Source: Eledone cirrhosa (taxonomy: Eukaryota). Taken from it: DNA of 64,000 bases. Positions within the stretch are counted from its first letter, which is position 1. The number at the start of each line of letters is the position of its first letter. The notes below the pieces were generated by a model. That model had not been told where the DNA came from. It ran no database searches and saw nothing but the letters and a program-made list of their open reading frames with translations. The stretch is taken from assembly GCA_964016885.1 (NCBI GenBank), contig OZ024747.1, positions 63,736,001 through 63,800,000 on the forward strand. Direction: 5' to 3'. A program made the translations under genes and the position numbers. Positions 3,456 through 60,074 of the stretch are shown here, in pieces.

Positions 3456-3645
3456 GTACGTTATTCCGGGTTGAATTGGAGGTAACCACAGTAAGTAAGG
3501 TACTCAATACATAGCAGAGTATAAAGGTTTTAATATAGATGAGATTCTACAGGACTAGAACTGTTTCATTCTTTAGAAATCATCAGGAATCAGATTCCTG
3601 ATGATTTCTAAAGAATGAAACAGTTCTAGTCCTGTAGAATCTCAT
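3456..3645 (-). mobile_element. Penelope-like pLTR-type non-autonomous element, family A (tail plus 107-bp palindrome)
   Basis: Flanked by (TA)n on both sides. Perfect 53-bp arms at 3539-3591 and 3593-3645 carry a hammerhead. Partial copies at about 28034-28082, 45712-45777 and 57331-57432. Confidence 0.65.
3592..3642 (+). ncRNA. Type I hammerhead ribozyme motif (mirrored on - strand by palindrome)
   Basis: AGAUUC-CUGAUGA-U-UUC-UAAA-GAA-U-GAAA-CAG-UUCUAGUC-CUG-U-A^GAAUCU. Stem I 6 bp, stem II 3 bp, stem III 4 bp, GUA site at 3634-3636. Confidence 0.8.
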
Positions 3646-3709
3646 ATATATATATATATATATCCTCTATATCCTCTAATTGGATTACTTATAACAATAT
3701 TTTGTTATC

Positions 3710-7526: not shown

Positions 7527-8556
7527 CATAAGGCACCATTGTATATTTCTTCCATAAATAATACACAAACGGGGCCCAATCAACGTTTCAGCCAATAGCG
7601 TCAAGCAAGCTTCATTCATTACTGTTTGTGTGTATAATTTGAAGAATGCATGTGAGATTTGACTGTTATTTCTACCAGATCAGGTGACCATATTTCAGTT
7701 CTTTATTCATTATAATCTACTATTTAGTGTTATAGTGTGTGTAATAGCAGTTTGGCATGATCACTGTTTGTGTATGTGTGTAGGATTTTGCTGCTATTTC
7801 TACCAGATCAGGTGACCATATTTCAGATTCATTATTCCTAATAGTCTACTATACAGTGTTATAGTGCGTGTAATAACAGTTTGGCATGGTCACTAATGTA
7901 CAGTAATTGACCTATGTGTTACTACAGCGGTAATATGTTATTAAAATACCGCCACACATGACCATTGACATGGAGTTTAAAGAAATTTGCTTCTCTCATA
8001 TCTGATGACCTTTTCTAAAGCTGACAAGAAGTACTGATGTATGAAGGTTGCTTCCAGTTCCAGGAATGGTAATCTTACTTCTTTCTCTCTGTAAATCTTT
8101 TCAACTACTTCAACCTGGAATTATCTTGTAAGTGTTGCATAGTAAATTATGGACTGTAGGGATAGAATAACATAGAGAGGGGAAGAAGGAGAGAGAGAAA
8201 GAGAAATAAAAAATGTAATGCAAGCATTATCTACTGCTCTCTAGAGCACATTTAATCATCATCATCACCATCGTTATCAGCAAAACCATCGTTCTCAAGA
8301 TCAGCAGTGTCCTCACCAGTATCATCAACAATGTCGTCATCATCATCCTCACCATTATCAGAATCATCACCATTATTATCACCAATAATAATAGAGTTTC
8401 ACTCTGTCTATATAGATTGAACATAATAGATATATTAGTTTTATATCCAATTTCATTACACCTGTGTTGTGTTTATTTTGTCTGAACACTAGTTGTTTTA
8501 CAGTAAAGATGATGTCATAGCCTGTGTAAGAACAACGCTGTATCTTTTATTATCAT

Positions 8557-10410
8557 AGTATTACAATAATATCTGTAATAACAACACTACATCCTTCTCT
8601 AGTATTACAATAATCTATGTAATAACAACACTACATCCTTCACTAATATTACAATAATTACTGTAATAATAACACTATATCCTTCAATAGTATTACAATA
8701 ATATCTGTAATAACAACACTATATACTTCTCTAATATTACAATAATCTCTGTAATAACAACACTATATCCTTCTCTAGTATTACAATACTATCTGTAATA
8801 ATAACACTATATCCTTCAATAGTATTACAATAATCTATGTAATAACAACACTATGTCCTTCAATAGTATTACAATAATCTATGTAATAACAACACTATGT
8901 CCTTCAATAGTATTACAATAATATCTGTAATAACAACACTATATCCTTCACTAATATTACAATAATTACTGTAATAGCAACACTATATCCTTCATTAGTA
9001 TTACAATAATCTATGTAATAACAACACTATATCCTTCAATAGTATTACAATAATATCTGTAATAACAACACTATATCCTTCACTAATATTACAATAATTA
9101 CTGTAATAGCAACACTATATCCTTCATTAGTATTACAATAATCTCTGTAATAACAACACTATATCCTTCTCATGTATTACAATAATATCTGTAATAATAA
9201 CACTATATCCTTCTCTAGTATTACAATAATCTCTGTAATAACAACACTATATCCTTCTCTTGTATTACAATAATCTCTGTAATAACAACACTATATCCTT
9301 CTCTAGTATTACAATAATCTCTGTAATAACAACACCATATCCTTCTCTTGTATTACAATAATCTATGTAATAACAACACTATATCCTTCTCTAGTATTAC
9401 AATAATCTCTGTAATAACAACACTATATCCTTCTCTATATTACAATAATCTCTGTAATAACAACACTATATCCTTCTCTTGTATTACAATAATATATGTA
9501 ATAACAAACACTATATCCTTCACTAGTATTACAATAATCTCTGTAATAACAACACTATATGCTTCTCTAGTATTACAATAATTTCTGTAATAACAACACT
9601 ATATCCTTCACTAGTATTACAATAATTTCTGTAATAACAACACTATATCCTTCACTAGTATTACAATAATTTCTGTAATAACAACACTATATCCTTCACT
9701 AGTATTACAATAATCTCTGTAATAACAACACTATATCCTTCACTAGTATTACAATAATTTCTGTAATAACAACACTATATCCTTCACTAGTATTACAATA
9801 ATATATGTAATAACAACACTATATCCTTCACTAGTATTACAATAATATATGTAATAACAACACTATATCCTTCAATAGTATTACAATAATCTATGTAATA
9901 ACAACACTATATCCTTCACTAGTATTACAATAATATATGTAATAACAACACTATATCCTTCAATAGTATTACAATAATATATGTAATAACAACACTATAT
10001 CCTTCACTAGTATTACAATAATATATGTAATAACAACACTATATCCTTCAATAGTATTACAATAATATATGTAATAACAACACTATATCCTTCTCTTGTA
10101 TTACAATAATATATGTAATAACAAACACTATATCCTTCACTAGTATTACAATAATCTCTGTAATAACAACACTATATCCTTCTCTAGTATTACAATAATT
10201 TCTGTAATAACAACACTATATCCTTCACTAGTATTACAATAATTTCTGTAATAACAACACTATATCCTTCTCTTGTATTACAATAATCTCTGTAATAACA
10301 ACACTATATCCTTCTCTTGTATTACAATAATGTATGTAATAACAACACTATATCCTTCACTAGTATTACAATAATCTCTGTAATAACAATATAACAAACA
10401 CTATATCCTG
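8557..10410. repeat. 44-bp minisatellite, about 42 copies
   Basis: Unit tagtattacaataatctctgtaataacaacactatatccttcac; period verified at 8691 and 8735. Confidence 0.97.
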
Positions 10411-12602
10411 TCAGTTTTAACAAGTGTTTTAATTTTTGATTAGCTTAGGAAATTTGTGTACAAGTAGCTGAGCATTCTACATACACATGTATTATCAGCA
10501 TACTTCTCAGGGAGAGTCGATATCACCCAGTGTGTAACAAGGCTGGCTTACCTTTAAATTACAAGTGTGTAGACATTTTTCCAGCTGAGTGAATTGGACC
10601 AATGTGAAATAAAGTGTCTTTCTCAAGGACATAATATGGCCCCTTGGGAATCACAACCACAACCTTAACCATTAAGCCATGGATTCCCTGGTAGATATAT
10701 AATGAACACATAAATGACTTTAAAACAGTATTTATCTCATCTACATTCACTTGATTGTTTATCAAAGTCTTATTTCTTATTTTCCCCTACAACTGTCTTG
10801 CTCCCTCTTCTCTCTCTTTCTCTCTCTGTCTCTCTCTCTATATATACCTATCTATTTCTCTCTCTCTCTCTAACTATCTATCTATCTCTTCTCTATTAGC
10901 TATATTTCATTAAAGTTCTTAAAACGTTTATGGAATTCCTGATAAGACATTGCCAAAGGCAATTGCTAGCTATTGGTGTTCTTATTTGATAGAATCAGTA
11001 AGAGAGAATTGGGTGAAAATGTGAAAGTTGAAATGAAGTTAAAAAACTTCATTTGAAACTTGGTAAAACTTGTGGAAAATTATACTGAAATTATACTGAA
11101 ATTATACTGAAAATGAATGAAATACAAATGATTCTTGGTTCATATCTAAGAGGCTGATGTCTATATTGACATATATTTTGAACAGTTTCCATCTAGTAAA
11201 TTCACTCCCAAGGCATTGCTCAGCCTGAGGTTAAAGAAGACACTTGCCTAAGATACTACACAGTGGAGTTGACGTTAAACCCCAAACTATATGATTGTGA
11301 AACAAACTGCTTAACCAAACAGCGATGTCTGAAATTATGATGGGAAGAATAAAGTAAATTCATTTTAAAATATCCATTATTCAGGAGTTTAGCTGTATGA
11401 TCTTTATTAATGTCCCTTTCTGTAACTTCCTATCATTTTCCTAATATAACACTTTAACCCTTTCGTTACTATATTTCTATCAAAAGACATTGGCTATGAT
11501 TTTCAATTAATTCTAAGAATAATAGAGAATTTGGAGGGATTTTGTAATATAACTTTCTCATTATTAAGCTGGTATTTAGAACAGTACTTAAGAGAAGGTT
11601 ACATAATATTATGATGGTTGGTTTAAATTTATAACACTTTAAAACACATGCTTTTCTTATCATATAATCAGGGACAGTTTCAGATGGGTTGGTGTCAAAA
11701 ATGTTAAGTATTTTTATACAAATCTGTCTGAAACTATTCCTCATTCTATGATACAAAACTGTCCATTTTACTATGTTCAAACCTTTCATCATAATTTCAT
11801 ATCAGAACTTTTTTGTGAAGTAATGTTTCCAACAACAACTTGATAATGAAAAAGCTTTTTTATTAAATTTCTCTAATTTTTTATATAATTTTCAAAATTA
11901 ATTGAAACACTTTAACAGTGTGTTCCTTCAACCCTTTCACATTTACATTACTTTATATTTAGTATTATATTTTCACTGTGAAGGCTTTAACTTACATGCT
12001 TTCGAATCTATGAGAGTTTTATATGATTTATTTTAAGAACAATAACTTAGCATAAATATGATCAGCTGGTTACAGCCAGTTTGAACAGAAAGAGGTGAGA
12101 GAATTCTAGATGGATATGGCTGGTTTAAATGCTAAAGGGTTAAAAAATATAGTAACAAAAGAGTTATTATGGCACTTTATATCTTAACCTCCTTTTCTGA
12201 ATATTGGACGTTTTAATGATCTGCTAAATTAATGCCACAAAGGTGCGTAGTCAAGTGGTTAAGGTGTTGGACTCATGATCATAAAATTATTGGTTCAATG
12301 CACAGATTAAGCAGCATGTTGTGTCCTTCAGTGGGACTTTCTAGTTTATGATGTTCCAGTTGACTTACCTGGTACAAATAAATTCTCTATCTGTAATTCA
12401 AAACGCTGGCTGTGTCACGTACTATGTGATACTGAATCTCCCTGAGAACTATGTGAAGTGTACATGTATCTGTGGAATGAAAAGACATTTGCATATTACT
12501 TCCATGAGCAGGCTGGCCCCTTGAACAAATAACTGGAAACTTTTCATCAAAAACAACGGAGGTTCTACCCACACATGCAGACACACCCATACACACATAC
12601 AC

Positions 12603-13660
12603 TTCTTCTTCTTCTTCTATTTATACCTGAGAGGGTGGTGGAGGAAGAGTTCTCAAACTCTCCCTCCAGCAGGTCCTGTCTGAAGCAACCATCTCCAACT
12701 GATCCAGCTGGATCCCCAAGTTCATGGATGTTATCCAACCATCTTGCTCAGGGGTCTCCTGCCAGTTAGTTTTGCCCATAAAATCTGTCCAGCGATTATT
12801 TCCAAAGACATTCTAAACACATGCCCATAGTATCGAAGCTGTGATCTCTAAATTTGGAGAAGTAGTGGCTTTACCTGGAGTGACTCTCTGATTTCTGAGC
12901 TACACATTCTATCGAGTAACGTTACTCCAAAGATCCTTCGGAGGAATTCCATATCGGCCACTAGTTTTTGCGAAAGTATTCTTTGTCATATCCAAGTATT
13001 CAGGACCATAGGTAAGGGTTGGCCTGAAAACCGAATTGAAGATAGCAAGTTTGGCTTTTATGCCTACCTCCCTTCTTCTGATTACTGAATGCTGGAACTG
13101 GTGCATTACTGCACTAGCTTCTGCGATTCTTGCACTTAATTCATTCTTATTTCCATCACTCATGAACATGGCCCCGAGATACTTGAACTTCTCTACCTGT
13201 TTCACTGGAACTTCATTCACATGTGGAGTGCACTGAGCAGGCTTCCTTAAGAGGAAGAGTGTCTCAGTTTTTGCAGTGCTGATTTTCATTCCAGCCATGC
13301 AACACTTGGCATCAAACCTAACAAGTGCAAGTCGAAGATCATCTTCTGTCAAGATAAATAACATTGTGTTGTCTGCAAATTTCAGGTGACTGATTTCACA
13401 TGCAGCAGTCATGATACCACATCCAATCCAGCTGCATATGTCAATCCTGTTCATGTAAATAATGAACAGGAGAGGTGAGAGTACACACGCTTGGCGAAGT
13501 CTGACCTCCACATTGAATGGTTTCGATTTAGCACCATTTAACTGAACAGAAATACTTGGGCATTCCTATAGAGACATCAGGGTAGTCAGAAGCTGACCAT
13601 CAATCCCATACTCCTGCACAGCTTTCCACAGCAGGTCCCAAGGAACGCCGTCATATGCCT
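12603..13660 (-). mobile_element. RTE-clade LINE reverse transcriptase fragment with (GAA)n tail
   Basis: ORF 12909-13511: LRQACVLSPLLF, FADN, VEKFKYLG, RPTLTYG. Frameshifted. Related pieces at about 28965-29128 (-) and 62630-63045 (+). Confidence 0.9.
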
Positions 13661-15287: not shown

Positions 15288-15323
<36 letters not shown>

Positions 15324-15325
<2 letters not shown>

Positions 15326-15660
15326 AGGCACGTGGCTTAGTGGTTAGAACATTGACCTTGCAATCGAAAGGTTGTGAGTTCAATTCTCAGGCCAGGTGAT
15401 GTGTTGTTTCCTTGAGCAAGACACTTTATTTCACATTGCTCCAGTTTACTGAGCTGTAGAAATGAGATGATAGGGGCTGGGGTCCCTATCATTCCACTGT
15501 AAAGTGGTTGTGGAGGTGCCATGGCATAAAAGCACCCAGTACTCACTGTAAATGAGGTTGGTGTTAGGAAGGGCATCCAGCTGTAGAAATCAAGCCAGAA
15601 TCAGTTCCCGTCCCACCCTTGCAAGCAGGGAAAAGTGGACTTAAAATGAAATGAAATGAA
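15324..15660 (+). mobile_element. tRNA-derived SINE family 1, full length
   Basis: A box tggcttagtgg, B box gagttcaattc, central ccttgagcaagacacttta, and a 3' part shared with the RTE 3' UTR. Many partial copies (about 6780-6965, 7230-7488, 12240-12560, 16215-16566, 17380-17700, 47915-48160, 56270-56596, 62228-62340). Confidence 0.85.
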
Positions 15661-22178: not shown

Positions 22179-22817
22179 TAGTTTTGCGAGGTTTTTTATA
22201 TTAAATCGTGTGTCGAAACAAATATTGTTAAACTTGGGGAGGGTCATATTTGTGTAATATTGCCAGAATTAATAACAGAACACACTCACTGTTTGGTTGG
22301 TTTTCGCTTTTCGCTTCTGCGTCCTTTATATCGGTAATCTAATTTACTCGGTCCTCAATGTTGCCATTGACTGACCAACGGTAAAAAATAATACAGATAC
22401 AATATAGACACAAACACATATATATACTTTATCATAAATCTTTTGTTGCACATCTGCAACATCGTCAGTAGTGCTATTGTTTCCTCCCGTTGCATTGTAT
22501 GTCTACGCCATTTTTATTTAGTTAAAAATGGCGTAGACATACAATGCAACGAGAGGAAACAATAGCACCACTGACGATGTTGCAGATGTGCAACGAAAGA
22601 TTTATGATAAACTATATATATGTGTTTGTGTCTATATTGTATCTGTATTATTTTTGACCGTTGGTCAGTCAATGGCAACATTGAGGACCGAGTAAATTAG
22701 ATTACCGATATAAAGGACACAGAAGCGAAAAGCGAAAACCAACCAAACAGTGAGTGTGTTCTGTTATTAATTCTGGCAATATTACACAAATATGACCCTC
22801 CCCAAGTATAACAATAT
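22179..22817. mobile_element. Fold-back element, family D, 295-bp inverted arms
   Basis: Arms 22222-22516 and 22523-22817, no indels and few mismatches, 6-nt loop. (TA)n flanks; contains a hammerhead-like motif. Confidence 0.85.
22567..22608 (+). ncRNA. Degenerate minimal hammerhead motif (family D) inside long palindrome
   Basis: ACCA-CUGACGA-U-GUUGCA-GAUG-UGCAAC-GAAA-GAUU-UA-UGAU. Core and 6-bp stem II are clear; stems I and III are weak. Confidence 0.6.
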
Positions 22818-25189: not shown

Positions 25190-25218
25190 TCCTCACATGA
25201 AAATCTTGTTCATACTAT

Positions 25219-26140
25219 ACTAGACATGAAAAATGCGCAAGCTCAAAAGTGCCACAGAATGTTATAATAAACCTTCAAAAGTGTGGGACTAGAGTTGTTG
25301 CTAAAAAATATTGTAATCATTATATATCGTACATTCTGTGGCATCCTTTATAAAAATAGCTTAAACCAACGAAGCCTTTATTTTTACGCTATTTCACTTA
25401 GTTAAACTATAAAATAAATTAATTAATATAATAACAGAGCTGCGGAGCTGAAATTTAGGAAATAATAGAGTATCGGATCCTGAGTTGGAGCCAGTCAATT
25501 TTTAGCCGACTCCGCAGCCCTGTATAATACATTTCATATTAAAGTTATTAATAAACCTATTTTACACTGCATGCAAATTACCATGAGATATTGATATTAG
25601 ATATAAGATACAGCGCAATATCTACAGCTGTAAAAGTACGAAAGCGAAGTAATAATAAGTGGCTTAAGGTAATTCCAATATGAAAGTTTGTAGTGATAAA
25701 AATTTGATAATGCAATACGATTGTTAATATTATAGTTCTATGAAAATGTAACAATAGATAACTAAATTATTTTACTATTAGTATATTTAAGAAATTATCA
25801 TTATAGATTTGATCGTTCATATAAGCATCATATTAATTTTCAACACAATTATTTTGTTACTATGAGTATATGATAATAATATTACGTAATTATTTATAGT
25901 TGTTATTACATTAAACATAGATGTATTTATTTTTATATGTTACACTCTAAGAATTAACTAAGTGAAATAGCGTAAAAATAAAGGCTTCGTTGGTTTAAGC
26001 TATTTTTATAAAGGATGCCACAGAATGTACGATATATAATGATTACAATATTTTTTAGCAACAACTCTAGTCCCACACTTTTGAAGGTTTATTATAACAT
26101 TCTGTGGCACTTTTGAGCTTGCGCATTTTTCATGTCTAGT
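25219..26140. mobile_element. MITE/foldback DNA element with 187-bp TIRs
   Basis: Arms 25219-25405 and 25954-26140 are apparently perfect reverse complements; AT-rich non-coding interior. Confidence 0.85.
25435..25522. mobile_element. Nested 88-bp hAT-type MITE
   Basis: TIRs cagagctgcggag / ctccgcagccctg; 8-bp TSD tataataa / tataatac. Confidence 0.75.
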
Positions 26141-27363
26141 TTAATATTTTTTTAAGGCAACGCTTGTAATAACTCTAGTTAAACAGGATATATATTAATA
26201 ATAAATTATCGTTGTAATGTAATTAGATTATGTAATTGTTATTATAAATTATCTTATAAATATTAGTGTAAGATGTATAAAAATATTTTCAGACTTTTAA
26301 TATAAACAACTACAAAAAACAATCAATATTAAATCAATATATTATACATAATAGAAGACATAAAATAAACAATACAAATACAAAATATTTACATACAATT
26401 GCAATTATCAGTGTATATACATTTTCTTTATATTCCCTGAGCAAATTAATAAGATTTGTTTTTATTGTACATAATTTGATGACTTGTTGGTGTGTATTAA
26501 AAGATAGCAACAATTTGTGATTAAATTGTTATCTTAAGCAACTCACTTTTTAATAGTTGTTGGCTGAGCGAAATTGTGAAAGCCTATGAGCAAATATAAA
26601 AAAAAATACACAAACAACATTTCCTTGTGTTATTACAACATTAGATAAAATAATTGAGCAATGTCGTTATATTTTGCTCTTATTGCACATTAATAGTGTT
26701 TCTATTTTTCGGCACAAATCCATTACGGCAGTCCATTACTGGTACTTTATTTTATCGAATTAGTAAGTATGAAAGTCGAAGTTAACCTCGGCAGGATTTG
26801 AACTTAGAATGCAAAGGACCATAACAATACTGCAAAGCATGGTGTCTGACGCTCTACCAATACTTGTGTTGAGCTGGTCATTAATTTATGGTGGTCGTGC
26901 GTGGAGTAGAGCAATCGCTAGTTGAAATATTATGAACAAAACATTTTTATTTGCCGAAGAACATATTTTCAATACTGTTTGTGAATGTGACGAAGGAAAT
27001 ACATTCTGATATGGAACGGTGTACAAAGTGTGTCTGTGAATAACATAATGTTACCTCATGTTGTTGTCAAGACATAATGGATTTCGTTTATCCAGTTAGA
27101 AGATGAAACCTAGCCATCTCGGATTAGTTATATTTCATGCCATGTGTAAACGTGTTTGAGGATAGCAAAATATGCGTGTTTCTTGTCTGGAAACTTTCTG
27201 CTAAACAAATTTGTTTCAGTATATATTTAATATAATATTAATATATTTTGTAATATTATTAACTAATTATTATAATTAGCGCTTCAGGCTTTGTCTATAT
27301 ACTGAAACAAATTTGTAAGTCATTACCTAATTAAACTCTTTGCTTGAAATTTTATCATTCTTC

Positions 27364-38179: not shown

Positions 38180-39800
38180 TATACAAACTAAATATTATGT
38201 ATAGTATCTATGCGCACTGAGTTATCTATGTGGTGTGTATACACACAAAATGATGTATATGGTATGTATACACATAAGATTATGTATATAGTAATGAAGT
38301 ATACATACTAAATTATCTATGTAGTATCTAAACACAATAAATTATATATGTAGTGTGTATATTCACTAAATTATTTATGTAGTATGTATATTCACTAAAT
38401 TATCTATGTAGTATGTATATTCACTAAATTATCTATGTAGTATGTATATTCACTAAATTATCTATGTATAATGATAATAATAAATAATGAAATTATTGTG
38501 TACAGTGCTCAGGTGCATTACAACTCATCAAAGGTGCGTGTATAGTACATAGAATAATGTACAAATGTCAGGAAAATGAACAGTATACGAGTCATGAAAT
38601 ACATGTGTGTGTGTGTATGGAGGAGGATATCAGGTGTAGCATTGGCGAATCTTAGGAAGCATGGAGGTTTTAAAGGATGCAGTGTCTCGACAAGCTAACA
38701 ACTGATGCAAGTAGTTTGTTCCATGCTTCAGCAACTCTGAACGTGAAAAAATGTTTCTGAAAGTCATGGGAGCTGTGCTGTTTTCTGATTTTGATGCCCA
38801 CATGGAAATCAAAAAGGTGCTCAGGGTTTTTGTTGGCAAGATGGTTAATCATTTTGTGGGTGTTTACCAAGTCAGTTGCCAGATGTTGGAGCTTCAATGT
38901 ATCCATGCCCAGGTAAGCAAGGCGTTCAGCATATGGTAGATGCCTGATGGGGGTTATTCGCTTGGTTCCATGTCTCTGAACAGTTTCCAGACGGTCAATG
39001 TCTGAGCAAGATAGGGGTTCCAGACTGGTGATGCAAATTCTAAGTGTGGCCACACCATAGCTATATACAGCTTTAAATAGATAGCTGGAGAGCAGCTGAC
39101 AAATGTCTTGCTGAGTGATGCTAAGACACCCTCGGCCTTCTTGACAATTTTAGAGATGTGCTTCATCCAACGCAAATCGTTGCTGACAGTAATGCCCAGG
39201 TCACGTTCACAAGAAGACTTCTTGATATTAGTGTTGTGGAGGGAGTATGCGGATGCTGGGTTTTTACTCCCAAAATGCATGGTGGTATACTTGTCCACAG
39301 CTAACTTGAGTTGCCAGTCCATGATCCATTGTTGCATTGTGTCCAGGTCAGATTGCAGGCAAGATCTATAGTGTTCAGGATCTGTCCTTTTTATCTCAAG
39401 GTACAGCTTGATGTCATCTGCGTATTTCAGTACTGTGGCATTCGTTAAGTTGGCATCTATGTCATTAACATATATGCCACAAACAAAAGGGGGCCTAGAA
39501 CAGATCCCTGTGGTACACCAGATGACATCTCATACATGTAGTATGTATATACACTGAATTATCTATGTAGTATGTATAAAAAGGGAATTATCTATGTAGT
39601 ATGTATAAATACTAAATTATATATGTAGTATGTATATATACTAAATTATATATGTAGTATGTATACGCAATGAATTACCTATGTAGTATGTATATAAAGT
39701 GAATTATCTATGTAGTATGTATATATATACACTAGATTATATATGTAGTGTATATACACACTAGATTATCTATATAATATTACGCACTAAATTATATACA
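38180..39800. repeat. 29-bp minisatellite split by the CR1 insertion
   Basis: Unit tagtatgtatattcactaaattatctatg at about 38180-38470 and 39538-39800. Confidence 0.85.
38470..39535 (-). mobile_element. CR1-clade LINE 3' fragment
   Basis: GVPQGSVLGP, YADDIKL, LQSDLD, ERDLGI, PHLEFASPVWNP, FRVAEAWNKL. Frameshifted, with a short (TTA)-type tail; sits inside a 29-bp minisatellite. Confidence 0.92.
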
Positions 39801-41940: not shown

Positions 41941-42328
41941 CTAATAAAATAGAATTGACTATCGTCTATGTATCTCATAGTTGTTCTCAAAGCTGTTTTA
42001 CTTAAAGGAAATCTATAAAAACATTTAATACATAATTCATGAGACTCTTCTAATATTAATGAATATAAGAATTACTATTTGGCAATTTCTAAATGGTTTT
42101 CTTCCTGTTACTTTATCAGAATATTAATATATATATATATAAATTAATAAAAACAATGAAATAAAAACAAAGAACAAGTTTCTTATATTAAAAAATTCAT
42201 CATTTTACGATCGTTTCTAGGATGTATATGTGTGTTGGTATGTATATCATGTAGATCTATGTAAAAATATTACAAACTATCAGAGGAAATATACATACCT
42301 TCACATATACATGCTGTCTTCAGAAATG

Positions 42329-42361
<33 letters not shown>

Positions 42362-42366
<5 letters not shown>

Positions 42367-42553
42367 AACGAGTGGGACCCCGACGGCTGAGCTCAGGTCG
42401 TTTCGACAGCTAATTAGTCCAGAATTAGCCGTCGAAACGACTTGAGCTCAGTCGTCGGGGTCCCACTCGTTCCTATTACCCACTCTACTACCCTAAGTAT
42501 TGAGTACTTTCGTGCTTATGGTCCATCTGGTTCCTTACCACTTTTCCTTCGTT
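42362..42553 (+). mobile_element. Hairpin-plus-tail element, family C
   Basis: GC-rich palindrome 42362-42476 followed by the tail tacccactctactaccctaagtattgagtacttt...ccttcgtta; (TA)n flanks. Confidence 0.8.
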
Positions 42554-42603
42554 ATATATATCATCATCATTATCATTTCATTTTACGTCCGCTTTTTCCC
42601 TGA

Positions 42604-42675
<72 letters not shown>

Positions 42676-42701
42676 CATATATATGTATGTATATATATAT
42701 A

Positions 42702-43282
42702 TCGTTTCTGAATTTGTTTAGCAAGATTCTTCATCTGAAAACGTGTGTTGAAACCGATATTGTTATACTTTGGGAGGGTCATGTTGCCTAATAAGAAACA
42801 CACGCACCAGTTGCTTTCACTCCAATTTATTATAAATAAATTTAAGAATTTATACATTTCCGGTTGGTTGGTTGGTTCCACAACCAGACGGTTGTTCATA
42901 TATTGTCAAAGTTTTTTCGTCACACATTCTGTGACCTCTTCAGTAACTGGGGATTCTTCTCTTTGTTTTGTGCCTCTCCTTTGTTCTGTCCTACGCCATC
43001 TTGTTTTTGTGTGTGTTGTGTGCTTAGTTTGCGCATGTGTTACATCCGGGTGTCTGTGTGTGTTTTTATTTGTTTATTTACATGTTACTGGTTGGTTGTT
43101 TGTTGTATGTGTGTGTGTTTTCATTTTGTCCTTAATTGTAAGTTATGATGTTGCTGTTCCATTCATGTTGTGCAACCAACCGGAAATTTATAAATTCTTA
43201 AATTTATTTATAATAAATAGGAATGAAAGCAACTGGTGCGTGTGTTTCTTATTGGCAACATGACCCTCCCAAAATATAACAA

Positions 43283-43285
<3 letters not shown>
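42702..43285. mobile_element. Fold-back element, family D variant
   Basis: Arms about 42757-42870 and 43173-43285. Shares the terminus cgtgtgtYgaaac..atattgtta.acttKgggagggtcat with the 22179 element; (TA)n flanks. Confidence 0.75.
42905..42947 (-). ncRNA. Degenerate minimal hammerhead motif (family D variant)
   Basis: Minus strand reads GUUA-CUGAAGA-G-GUCACA-GAAUG-UGUGAC-GAAA-AAAC-UU-UGAC. Core, 6-bp stem II and 4-bp stem I are present; stem III has decayed. Confidence 0.6.
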
Positions 43286-43327
<42 letters not shown>

Positions 43328-43359
43328 TTATATGTATTTATATATCTATATATATATCT

Positions 43360-43550
43360 GAAAAAATTCAGGTACCCTGGTGGCCGAGCTCCGGGTGTGT
43401 CAAAAGCTAAATCTGAAATCAGATGTGAGTTCAGATCTAGCTTATGAAATGCCAGGGCTCTGCTGTTGGGGTCCTGAATTTGTTCATATTACCCACTTTC
43501 GAGTACTCTGGTGAGTAATGGTCTAACTGGTTTTTACCGCCTCCATTCTG
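43360..43550 (+). mobile_element. Diverged family C-like hairpin-plus-tail element
   Basis: Imperfect palindrome 43360-43485 ending ggggtcc, then a tail (ttacccact..gagtact.tggtg..atggtc..ctggtt..tacc) colinear with family C. Confidence 0.6.
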
Positions 43551-45471: not shown

Positions 45472-45475
<4 letters not shown>

Positions 45476-45673
45476 GAAGGAAAAGTGGTAAGGAACCAGA
45501 TGGCCCATAATGCACCAAAGTACTCAATACTTAGGGTAGTAGAGTGGGTAATAGGAACGAGTAGGACCCCGACGGCTGAGCTCAAGTCGTTTCAATGGCT
45601 AATTAATTCTGGACTCCAGAATTAGCCGTCGAAACAGCTTGAGCTCAGCCGTCGGGGTCCTACTGGTTCCTAT
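45472..45673 (-). mobile_element. Hairpin-plus-tail element, family C
   Basis: Reverse-oriented near-identical copy of 42362-42553; palindrome 45551-45673; (TA)n flanks. Confidence 0.8.
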
Positions 45674-45714: not shown

Positions 45715-45774
45715 CTCTGCTATGTATTGAGTACCTTACTTACTGTGGTTACCTCCGATTCAACCCGGAATAAC

Positions 45775-45821
<47 letters not shown>

Positions 45822-50897: not shown

Positions 50898-51091
50898 TAA
50901 CGAAGGAAATGTGGTAAGGAACCAGATGGACCATAATGCACCAAAGTACTCAATACTTAGGGTAGTAGAATCGGTAATAGGAATGAGTAGGACCCCGACG
51001 GCTGAGCTGAAGCCATTTCGGCGGCTAATTCTGGACTCAGAATTAGCCGTCGAAACGGCTTGAGCTCAGCCATCGGGGTCCTACTCGTTCC

Positions 51092-51094
<3 letters not shown>
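50898..51094 (-). mobile_element. Hairpin-plus-tail element, family C
   Basis: Third copy; palindrome 50977-51094; (TA)n and (TATG)n flanks. Confidence 0.8.
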
Positions 51095-54527: not shown

Positions 54528-54624
54528 GATATATATATATAATATATATAAAATATATATTTATATATATAATATATGTATATACACATATGTATGCATC
54601 ATGCTTATATATATGTAGATATAT

Positions 54625-54946
54625 GGAGGCACATGGCTTAGTGGTTAGAGCATTGGCTTTGCAATCGAAAGGTTGTGAGTTCAATTCTCAAACCGAGTGA
54701 TGTGTTGTTTCCTTGAGCAAGACACTTTATTTCACGTTGCTCCAGTTTACTCAACTATAGAAATGAGATTATAGGGACTGGGATCCCTATCATTCGTGGA
54801 GGTGCCACGGCAAAAAAGCACCCAGCACTCACTGTAAATGAGGTTGGTGTTAGGAAGGGCATCCAGCTGTAGAAATCAAGCCAGAATCAGTTCCCGTCCC
54901 ACCCTTGCAAGCAGGGAAAAGTGGACGTAAAATGAAATGATGATGA
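54625..54946 (+). mobile_element. tRNA-derived SINE family 1, full length
   Basis: Near-identical to 15324-15660; (TGA)n tail. Confidence 0.85.
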
Positions 54947-57037: not shown

Positions 57038-57428
57038 GTATGAATATAATATACAAATATATTGATACACAAATACATACATACACACACATAAACACAC
57101 ATGCACACTCGCATAAACACATATACAAGCACATACATATATGGCACATGTGTGTTTAGGGTCCATTAAAGAGGATTCAACCAGTATTCAAACATTTGCA
57201 AGATTATTAGTTTGGTACATTACTACTTCTATGATTCTTCCTTTTTCCTCAACTGATCCACAAATATATATAACATGTGTATGTAAATATAATATCTATA
57301 TATATATATAAATATGTGTGTGTGTGTGTGTCCGGGTTCAATCAAGGGTAACCACAGTAAGTAAGGTACTCAATACATAATTTCCTTTGAATGAAAAAGT
57401 TCTAGTCTTGTAGAAGCCATTTCTATAT

Positions 57429-59407: not shown

Positions 59408-59794
59408 TTCATCATCATTTCATTTTACGTCCACTTTTCCCTGCTTGCAAGGGTGGGACAGGAACTGATTCTGGCTTGATTTCTACAGCTGGATGCCCTT
59501 CCTAACACCAACCTCATTTACAGTGAGTGCTGGGTGCTTTTTTTCCGTGGCGCCTACACGTCCACTTTACAGAGTGGGCTGGGTGCTTTTTTGCCGTGGT
59601 ACCTCCACGACCACTTTACAGTGGAATGATAGGGACCCCAGTCCCTAGCATCTTATTTCTACAGCTGAGTAAACTGGAGCAATGTGAAATAAAGTGTCTT
59701 GCTCAAGGAAACAACACATCACCCGGTCTGAGAATTGAACTCACAACCTTTCGATTGCAAGGCCAATGCTCTAACCACTTAGCCATGTACCTCC
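59405..59794 (-). mobile_element. tRNA-derived SINE family 1, full length
   Basis: Reverse copy with a duplicated aagcacccag...ctgtaaa internal unit. Confidence 0.85.
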
Positions 59795-60074
59795 ACATAT
59801 ATATATACATATGGAAAAGAATGAAACAAAATTTCATTTCTCACTCTTAATACGGCTGATGCCTAAATATAAGTATTTATGCATACATACATATATGTGT
59901 ACAGACGTACAGTAGTATGTATATATATACATACATGCACACATATATATATGTATGTATGGGTTTACCAAACATTTATTATAATGTTCGGTTTGTTTGT
60001 AAACAAACAGCCCGAATTACGCCGTACAGTGCTCAGCAATGACCGTCGCCCTTTTGTTCAACACTGACACAGGA

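What the first reader, a model, noticed from the sequence alone, without database searches (positions are those of the whole stretch)
42362..42553. Family C: palindrome appears to pivot on hammerhead stem II, leaving two 3' half-ribozymes
Seen: each arm reads ..AATTAGCCGTC-GAAA-CGGCT-TGAGCTC-AGCCG-TC-GGGGTCC. That is GAAA, a stem III with a palindromic GAGCTC loop, and a GUC site, but no CUGANGA. The right arm here has GACT/AGTC where other copies have GGCT/AGCC, a possible compensatory pair. The hairpin centre (gacggctaatt...aattagccgtc) sits where stem II would be. Inference: snap-back at stem II during cDNA synthesis replaced the 5' half of the ribozyme with an inverted copy. An alternative is a non-canonical core variant. 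Three copies with slightly different centres suggest a recurrent mechanism.
Basis: partly seen in the sequence, partly recalled or inferred. Interest (0 to 1): 0.7.

Follow-up and report, generated by a model that had tools for sequence, protein, structure and literature searches.

The report
Mini-Penelope palindrome lacking ribozyme core
This is a very abundant 190-base mirror-image repeat sitting in TA microsatellites of an animal genome, likely a tiny passenger of Penelope-type retrotransposons that keeps only the downstream half of a hammerhead ribozyme, which would mean it spread without being able to cut its own RNA.

Summary
The palindrome is real (54-bp arms, 76-nt one-sided tail). It has four copies in the window, and over 10,000 contigs per run align to it. 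Each arm, read outward, has GAAA, a 5-6 bp helix III with a GAGCTC loop, and GUC; no copy holds CUGANGA.

The snap-back-at-stem-II reading is not supported. The proposed stems I and II are only the mirror. The 'compensatory' pair sits in 1 of 6 arms and is mismatched in the opposite arm. All tail-side arms, and seemingly single-arm copies in the reads, start at one fixed point (42416).

That point matches the pivot of family B in this window (3456-3646). B has an intact type I hammerhead pattern, a similar unit length (136 versus 137-138 nt) and the same tail motif, and it pivots just upstream of helix I.

Best reading: a non-autonomous Penelope-type template that lost its ribozyme core once, in the founder, and is inverted at its 5' end during insertion. 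Inverted repeats with a one-sided tail are known Penelope traits. No parent, RNA or partner protein was seen. Verdict: new variant of a known kind, moderate interest.

The parts
42363..42415 (-). Tail-less arm of copy 1; reads GAAA-helix III-GUC outward on the minus strand; starts 7 nt inside the tail-side unit
42416..42422 (+). Palindrome centre = first 7 nt of the tail-side unit (fixed 5' end; inferred 5' strand of helix I; fits initiator A+1KTY)
   Evidence: loose ends
42423..42433 (+). Stretch before GAAA ending in C (possible 3' strand of helix II, no partner inside the unit; can also pair with 42437-42442 as a CGAA hairpin in copies with the majority G at 42440)
42434..42456 (+). Hammerhead-like 3' half: GAAA, helix III with palindromic GAGCTC loop, GUC
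42457..42475 (+). Rest of the arm; 42465-42468 can pair with the unit's 5' end (4 bp in copy 3), as helix I does in family B; the arm ends at a fixed point in copies 1-3
42476..42551 (+). One-sided 76-nt tail, with the 11-nt motif at 42497-42507 shared with family B at the same distance (44-45 nt) from the 3' end
42336..42362 (.). (TA)n run on the left flank; a shorter run follows the tail; inferred target site
45475..45672 (-). Copy 2 of family C (3-nt centre loop, 4-nt duplication in the tail-side arm)
50901..51093 (-). Copy 3 of family C (4-nt centre loop)
43359..43550 (+). Copy 4, diverged sister subfamily, palindrome plus tail with a 14-nt deletion
   Evidence: E 4e-30 with a profile that includes it; copy 3 vs copy 4: 0 of 1000 shuffles reach the score
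3456..3646 (-). Family B palindrome plus tail: comparator with a complete type I hammerhead pattern (helix I 5 bp, CUGAUGA, weak helix II, GAAA, helix III 4 bp, GUA) in each arm

Best explanation
Family C is a high-copy repeat made of a roughly 136-nt non-coding unit plus an inverted partial copy of its first 60 nt, and it is likely a non-autonomous passenger of Penelope-like retroelements that descends from a hammerhead-bearing unit like family B and lost the CUGANGA half once, in its founder. Inferred working: the RNA has a fixed 5' end at 42416, the 5' strand of helix I and possibly a Pol II initiator. A Penelope RT-endonuclease supplied in trans nicks (TA)n DNA and starts cDNA at two sites, the tail end and the arm end. 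Both copies run to, or within 3-7 nt of, the RNA 5' end and are joined head to head, either as two separately primed cDNAs or by fold-back of the first cDNA. The palindrome therefore pivots on the template's 5' end, not on stem II, and the unit would not self-cleave. Shown: anatomy, fixed start, TA flanks, abundance, missing core, likeness to family B. Inferred: Penelope partner, RNA intermediate, ancestry of the half-ribozyme, cause of the fixed 5' end.
For: Head-to-head inverted repeat with a tail on one side in 4 of 4 copies, the arrangement described for Penelope elements (passages of PMC3846280; PMC8557442). 7 of 8 copy ends lie next to a (TA)>=4 run, against 6.5% of the window. Same start of the tail-side unit in copies 1-3 and a homologous start in copy 4. 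Loose ends in X1-X3 (204-230 contigs behind 42412; 29-32 contigs before 42414 in X2 and X3) turn AT-rich within about 2 nt of that start, and 2,224 X5 reads with a median 80-nt loose part do not return to the other arm. Family B versus C: unit 136 vs 137-138 nt; pivot to shared motif 81 vs 82 nt; motif to 3' end 44 vs 44-45 nt; 7 of the first 9 bases identical for copy 3 (P 0.0013, 0.007 over 5 registers), 6 of 9 for copies 1 and 4; global alignment reached by 1 and 5 of 2,000 shuffles, the 5' part without the motif by 11 and 57 of 2,000. Helix III ACAG/CUGU (B) vs ACGG/CCGU (C) and end pairing GAUUC/GAAUC (B) vs GAGU/ACUC (C) both keep pairing. Both arms of copy 1 share two variants, each held by 3% or less of depth, so they come from one source template or were homogenised. 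In vitro, an anole Penelope inserts with a dead ribozyme and with RNA truncated to +20, past the CUGANG core, and starts RT at two sites that define the tail (PMC11167929).
Against: No RT or GIY-YIG gene is linked to any copy; the two RT fragments found lie elsewhere in the window. The B-C likeness is modest and rests on one full B copy; the 5'-part test is weak (57 of 2,000 for copy 1). The tail (76 nt) is longer than the 30-40 nt in the papers read. Helix III is longer than any in the metazoan Penelope hammerhead alignment rows read. In copy 3's tail-less arm the helix III 5' strand pairs with the upstream repeat instead (0.95 vs 0.05; that arm has a mutation in the downstream strand). The B-C alignments do not put the two GAAA motifs in register, so which GUC matches B's site is unsettled. 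Family A palindromes in the window pivot at different distances from their cores, so a fixed pivot is not general. Read evidence is consensus of loose ends (agreement 0.47-0.72), unphased, from at most 2 samples, 24 of 627 rows shown. A fixed RNA 5' end was not observed.
Confidence: 0.6

Rival explanations
1. One reading: an intact hammerhead parent exists, and each cDNA snaps back at stem II, replacing the 5' half of the ribozyme with an inverted copy; the centre of copy 1 would be the native stem II with a 7-nt loop.
For: The 3' half motif is unlikely in shuffles (16-70 of 20,000). The stretch before GAAA ends in C like helix II 3' strands in published Penelope hammerheads. All three centres can be drawn as hairpins with 3-7 nt loops.
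Against: The 5' strand of the proposed stem II is only the mirror arm. The loose ends shown have no stem II strand or CUGANGA upstream of the centre (24 of 627 rows). A loose window scan gave many partial hits, none continuing into family C sequence apart from the centre of copy 1 itself. Copy 4 mirrors through the whole centre plus 2 more bases. The pivot matches B's, which is upstream of an intact core. The compensatory pair fails.
Confidence: 0.12
2. The arm motif is not hammerhead-derived. The unit is a SINE-like Penelope passenger whose first 35 nt are an internal Pol II promoter (initiator plus MTE/Bridge and DPE-like sites), and GAAA-stem-GUC is a by-product of a short internal repeat.
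For: Taking 42416 as +1, copies 1 and 3 match AKTY 4 of 4, Bridge part I 3 of 4 and DPE 5 of 6 (consensus from PMC4581360); chance 43 of 200,000 at a fixed position, 18 of 127,920 window positions; MTE 8 of 12 in copy 1 (P 0.015) and 6 of 12 in copy 3. D. virilis Penelope has an internal promoter with a DPE (PMC2377424). The alternative CGAA hairpin competes with helix III. This is partly compatible with the best explanation, as the cause of the fixed 5' end.
Against: Thresholds were set after seeing the match; copies 2 and 4 fall below them; the consensus is from flies and mammals. It does not explain why 42451-42462 varies little between subfamilies or the pair-preserving differences from family B.
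Confidence: 0.18
3. The arm is a complete but non-canonical ribozyme: helix I closes the unit's 5' end onto 42465-42468, and the bases after it replace CUGANGA.
For: The 5' end can pair with the arm end. Subfamily variation spares GAAA, helix III and GUC (<=2% in contig runs at the right-arm rows shown, against 27-38% at neighbouring sites, 40 of 181 rows shown). One core variant (U3-A8) is published.
Against: No CUGANGA or UUGANAA in any copy. The stretch between the 5' end and GAAA does not fold; forcing the G-C closing pair costs +4.9 kcal/mol, against -6.2 and -6.4 for family A helix II (family B's helix II also fails, +5.7). The candidate core positions differ between subfamilies.
Confidence: 0.05
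4. A MITE or fold-back DNA transposon with TA target sites; the inverted repeat is its terminal repeat pair.
For: The arms begin and end with TA and the copies sit in TA runs; copy number is very high.
Against: A conserved 76-nt tail lies outside the inverted repeat on one side in 4 of 4 copies; centres vary; single-arm copies appear in reads; related family B carries a hammerhead pattern.
Confidence: 0.05

Closest known systems
Penelope-like element insertions with inverted pLTR and one-sided tail (Adineta vaga Penelope, PMC3846280; Naiad, PMC8557442; passages read)
   Same: Head-to-head inverted repeat, palindromic junction, tail on one end only, preference for AT-rich or (TA)n targets; self-priming already proposed for the palindromes.
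   Different: No ORF; unit only about 136 nt; tail 76 nt rather than 30-40; 5' end fixed rather than variably truncated.
Type I hammerheads in Penelope pLTRs (PMC4209133; parts 1-2 of 4 and supplement parts 1-2 of 3 read)
   Same: C-GAAA-N, palindromic helix III loop, NUH; pairs of motifs on opposite strands are reported 100-700 bp apart.
   Different: CUGANGA and the helix II 5' strand are absent; helix III is 5-6 bp with a 7-nt loop, longer than in the metazoan examples read.
Anole Poseidon (PAc) in vitro system (PMC11167929; parts 1-2 of 4 read)
   Same: AT-rich nicking of both strands, two RT start sites that define the tail, ribozyme cleavage not needed, RNA truncated past the core still inserts.
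   Different: That is an autonomous element tested in vitro; family C would be a natural minimal template, and its partner protein is not identified.
Non-LTR retrozymes (bioRxiv 10.64898/2026.07.22.740005; part 1 of 5 and passages read; supplements not seen)
   Same: Short non-autonomous elements related to Penelope pLTRs.
   Different: Retrozymes are head-to-tail tandems with complete hammerheads; family C is dispersed, head-to-head and core-less.

Membership tests
Hammerhead ribozyme, type I | CUGANGA (or U3-A8 variant) core | tested here: not met
   0 of 4 copies on either strand
Hammerhead ribozyme, type I | GAAA followed by helix III and NUH | tested here: met
   6 bp in the tail-side arms of copies 1 and 3, 3 bp in copies 2 and 4; 16-70 of 20,000 shuffles
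Hammerhead ribozyme, type I | Helix II between core and GAAA | tested here: not met
   No fold inside the unit, +4.9 kcal/mol when forced; the apparent stem is the mirror arm
Hammerhead ribozyme, type I | Helix I flanking the cleavage site | tested here: inconclusive
   4 bp between the 5' end and 42465-42468 in copy 3, but 8 nt downstream of GUC; GGGG after GUC has no partner in the unit
Hammerhead ribozyme, type I | Covariation in helix III across copies | tested here: inconclusive
   Claimed pair fails; one pair-preserving difference against family B; read variants unphased
Hammerhead ribozyme, type I | Self-cleavage | not testable with these tools
   Needs an assay
Penelope-like element derivative | Head-to-head inverted repeat with one-sided tail | tested here: met
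   4 of 4 copies
Penelope-like element derivative | AT-rich or (TA)n insertion sites | tested here: met
   7 of 8 ends next to (TA)>=4, window background 6.5%
Penelope-like element derivative | Homology to the pLTR of an element encoding RT and GIY-YIG | not testable with these tools
   No genome held; of 7 ORFs scanned (37 listed) 2 hit RVT_1, none GIY-YIG, none adjacent to a copy
Penelope-like element derivative | Relation to a hammerhead-bearing pLTR-type family | tested here: inconclusive
   Family B likeness reached by 1-5 of 2,000 shuffles, one full B copy only
Non-LTR retrozyme | Head-to-tail tandem units each with a complete type I hammerhead | tested here: not met
   Copies dispersed, inverted and core-less
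MITE | Inverted repeats at both termini of the mobile unit | tested here: not met
   Conserved tail lies outside the repeat on one side

The most novel reading that the evidence does not exclude
Families B and C are standard-length (about 136 nt) mini-Penelope templates with a defined 5' end at helix I. Family C expanded massively after losing the catalytic core while keeping helix I and helix III, showing in a natural genome that the Penelope enzyme needs the ribozyme scaffold rather than cleavage. Its palindromes record two cDNAs primed at the two RT start sites and joined at the RNA 5' end.
Probability: 0.3. Interest if true: 0.6.

Novelty: new variant of a known kind. Interest (0 to 1): 0.38.

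Why it matters
The role of the hammerhead in Penelope elements and the origin of their inverted ends are open questions in the papers read. A very high-copy family with a fixed unit, with and without the ribozyme core in one genome, makes both countable. Thousands of junctions could separate fold-back from two-primer synthesis, and B versus C would show whether cleavage matters for spread in vivo, extending the in vitro result for the anole element. If the hammerhead likeness is coincidence, it is an ordinary unannotated short repeat.

Tried and rejected
No whole genome is held, so the parent search could not be run directly.

Rfam: 0 hits at gathering level in the window; no hammerhead at E<=10 for 42200-43400 or the single arm. 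The same search also missed family A's hammerhead-like motif, so the blank is uninformative; miRNA hits reflect the hairpin only.

Exact-pattern scans: 0 matches in metagenome contigs, 0 in viral contigs, 1 in genome contigs (L001) whose flanks are unrelated, treated as chance. No RNA holder listed. Earlier findings of the scan: nothing. ARAGORN 0 genes; bacterial promoter and terminator scan 0 (not suited to this host).

Reads ending at 42415 and 42423 in X5 coincide with AATT sites in a RAD library and are treated as a likely restriction artefact. Summed depth was not used as copy number. One reading frame is open through copies 2 and 3 but not 1 and 4; not pursued. HDV-like, twister and pistol folds and a type II hammerhead were considered by eye from recalled consensus only and did not fit. 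The pair count on alignment A1 failed on a length slip and was not repeated, since three rows add nothing.

Paper searches listed no description of this family; most subscription journals, Repbase and Dfam were not searchable, so this is not proof it is unpublished.

Full report
Observation. The element at 42363-42551 is an inverted repeat of 54-bp arms with a 7-nt centre, followed on the right by a 76-nt tail. It folds as one hairpin of -103.2 kcal/mol; 0 of 200 shuffles fold as well. Two close copies lie at 45475-45672 and 50901-51093 on the minus strand (about 90% identity), and a diverged fourth at 43359-43550. Seven of the 8 ends lie next to a (TA)>=4 run, against 6.5% of the window. The family is very abundant: 10,643-11,680 contigs per run aligned in three runs of one sample and 23,550 reads in a RAD run of another, at 80% likeness. 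The host appears to be an animal, from its microsatellite-rich composition (my judgement); no genome is held.

The half-hammerhead. Read outward from the centre, each arm has C-GAAA, a helix closed by A42437-T42455 around a GAGCTC palindrome, and GUC. That pattern arose in 70 (>=4 bp) or 16 (>=5 bp) of 20,000 shuffles, a post hoc test. No CUGANGA or UUGANAA is present in any of the 4 copies. The 'compensatory' pair fails: GAC is in 3 of 6 arms, AGTC in 1 of 6, and the opposite arm of the same copy is mismatched; both letters are minority variants in the reads (about 3% and 6% of X1 depth). A competing hairpin with the upstream repeat dominates in copy 3's tail-less arm (0.95). In favour of some constraint, subfamily variation of 27-38% falls at 42395/42396, 42425, 42450, 42463 and 42468, whereas the rows shown inside the GAAA-helix-GUC block stay at or below 2% in contig runs (7% at one mirrored CpG; 13-20% at some C positions in one mate direction of the RAD run). 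Only 40 of 181 rows were shown.

Where the palindrome pivots. In copies 1-3 the tail-side strand begins at the same base, 42416, and the tail-less arm starts 7, 3 and 4 nt inside it; copy 4 has the homologous start and mirrors 2 bases further. Loose ends agree. Behind 42412, 204-230 contigs per run carry the sister subfamily's start and then AT-rich consensus. Before 42414, 29-32 contigs in X2 and X3 carry AT-rich consensus. In X5, 2,224 reads have a loose part of median 80 nt that does not return to the other arm. I read these as single-arm copies with a fixed 5' end. The predicted parent is not among the 24 rows shown, but 603 were hidden, agreement is 0.47-0.72, and contigs collapse identical copies.

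Family B as comparator. The palindrome at 3456-3646 has a complete type I pattern in each arm: helix I of 5 bp starting at the pivot, CUGAUGA, a weak helix II, GAAA, helix III of 4 bp and GUA (its helix II does not fold alone). B and C share an 11-nt tail motif 44-45 nt from the 3' end and 81-82 nt from the pivot, and the units are 136 and 137-138 nt. Copy 3 matches 7 of B's first 9 bases. Global alignments were reached by 1 and 5 of 2,000 shuffles, and the 5' part alone by 11 and 57 of 2,000 (local alignments 4 and 0 of 1,000). Helix III and the end pairing each differ by a pair-preserving change. So C's pivot likely corresponds to the 5' end of helix I, upstream of where the core should be, and the core was lost inside the unit by deletion or decay. 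The likeness is modest, rests on one full B copy, and the alignments do not register the two GAAA motifs. In one search the slice for copy 2 was one base off, so its 2 of 9 score is not used.

Mechanism (inferred). Inverted repeats with a one-sided tail and AT-rich targets are Penelope traits, and self-priming was proposed for them in 2013 (PMC3846280, passages; PMC8557442, passages). The anole element nicks both strands, starts RT at two sites that define the tail, and inserts with a dead ribozyme or an RNA cut back to +20, past the CUGANG core (PMC11167929, parts 1-2 of 4). Family C fits a natural minimal template of this kind. Both arms of copy 1 share two rare variants, which fits fold-back, two RNAs from one source locus, or later conversion. 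A B derivative at 57333-57428 joins a tail head-to-head to a non-overlapping arm, which fits two primed cDNAs or a later deletion. The fixed start fits an initiator, with partial Bridge, MTE and DPE matches at the required spacing in copies 1 and 3 but not 2 and 4; D. virilis Penelope has such an internal promoter (PMC2377424, passages and Discussion). No RNA start was observed.

Comparison and novelty. It is not a hammerhead ribozyme (core and helix II missing), not a retrozyme (no tandem, no core; bioRxiv 10.64898/2026.07.22.740005, part 1 of 5 and passages; its supplements were not seen) and not a MITE. It works like a Penelope-type insertion, but membership lacks a linked RT-endonuclease: 7 of 37 listed ORFs were scanned, and 2 gave RVT_1 fragments away from the copies. 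Helix III is longer than in the metazoan Penelope hammerheads listed in PMC4209133 (parts 1-2 of 4 and supplement parts 1-2 of 3). Nine paper searches listed no account of this family; repeat databases were not searchable.

Verdict. A core-less, fixed-length Penelope-type passenger beside an intact sister family is a new variant of a known kind; interest 0.38.

Noticed in passing
window 3456-3646 (-): Family B: palindrome plus tail with a complete type I hammerhead pattern in each arm; predicted cut after GUA rather than after the nearer GUC; helix II weak in this copy.
   Followed up: partly
window 22180-22817 and 42705-43286: Family A: larger palindrome-plus-tail elements with CUGANGA, a 6-bp helix II and GAAA reading towards the tail; pivots lie at different distances from the core. 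Rfam does not detect them.
   Followed up: partly
window 45715-45778 (+): Lone family B tail in a TA run about 40 bp from copy 2 of family C.
   Followed up: no
window 57333-57428: Family B tail joined head-to-head to a non-overlapping tail-less arm, ending in a (GT)n run on the tail side.
   Followed up: partly
window 42363-43550: Three Penelope-type palindromes (C copy 1, family A, C copy 4) packed within 1.2 kb, each separated by TA runs.
   Followed up: no
window 42492-42508 (+): Tail motif shared by B and C; in C it forms a small AAGUA/UACUU hairpin, a candidate RT recognition signal.
   Followed up: no
window 42418-42422 with 42527-42531 (+): In single-unit folds of copies 1-3 the 5' end pairs with a stretch near the end of the tail, closing most of the unit.
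   Followed up: no
window 25212-25405 and 25954-26147: 194-bp inverted repeat, 99% complementary, 548 nt apart; not related to family C.
   Followed up: no
window 12909-13565 (-) and 38670-39529 (-): Reverse transcriptase fragments (Pfam RVT_1, E 4e-11 and 1e-7), probably LINE remnants.
   Followed up: partly
window 8424-10200: Tandem array of a 44-bp unit, about 40 copies.
   Followed up: no
window 15306-15552, 54607-54795, 59566-59812: Dispersed repeat of about 250 bp in three copies, 91-92% alike.
   Followed up: no
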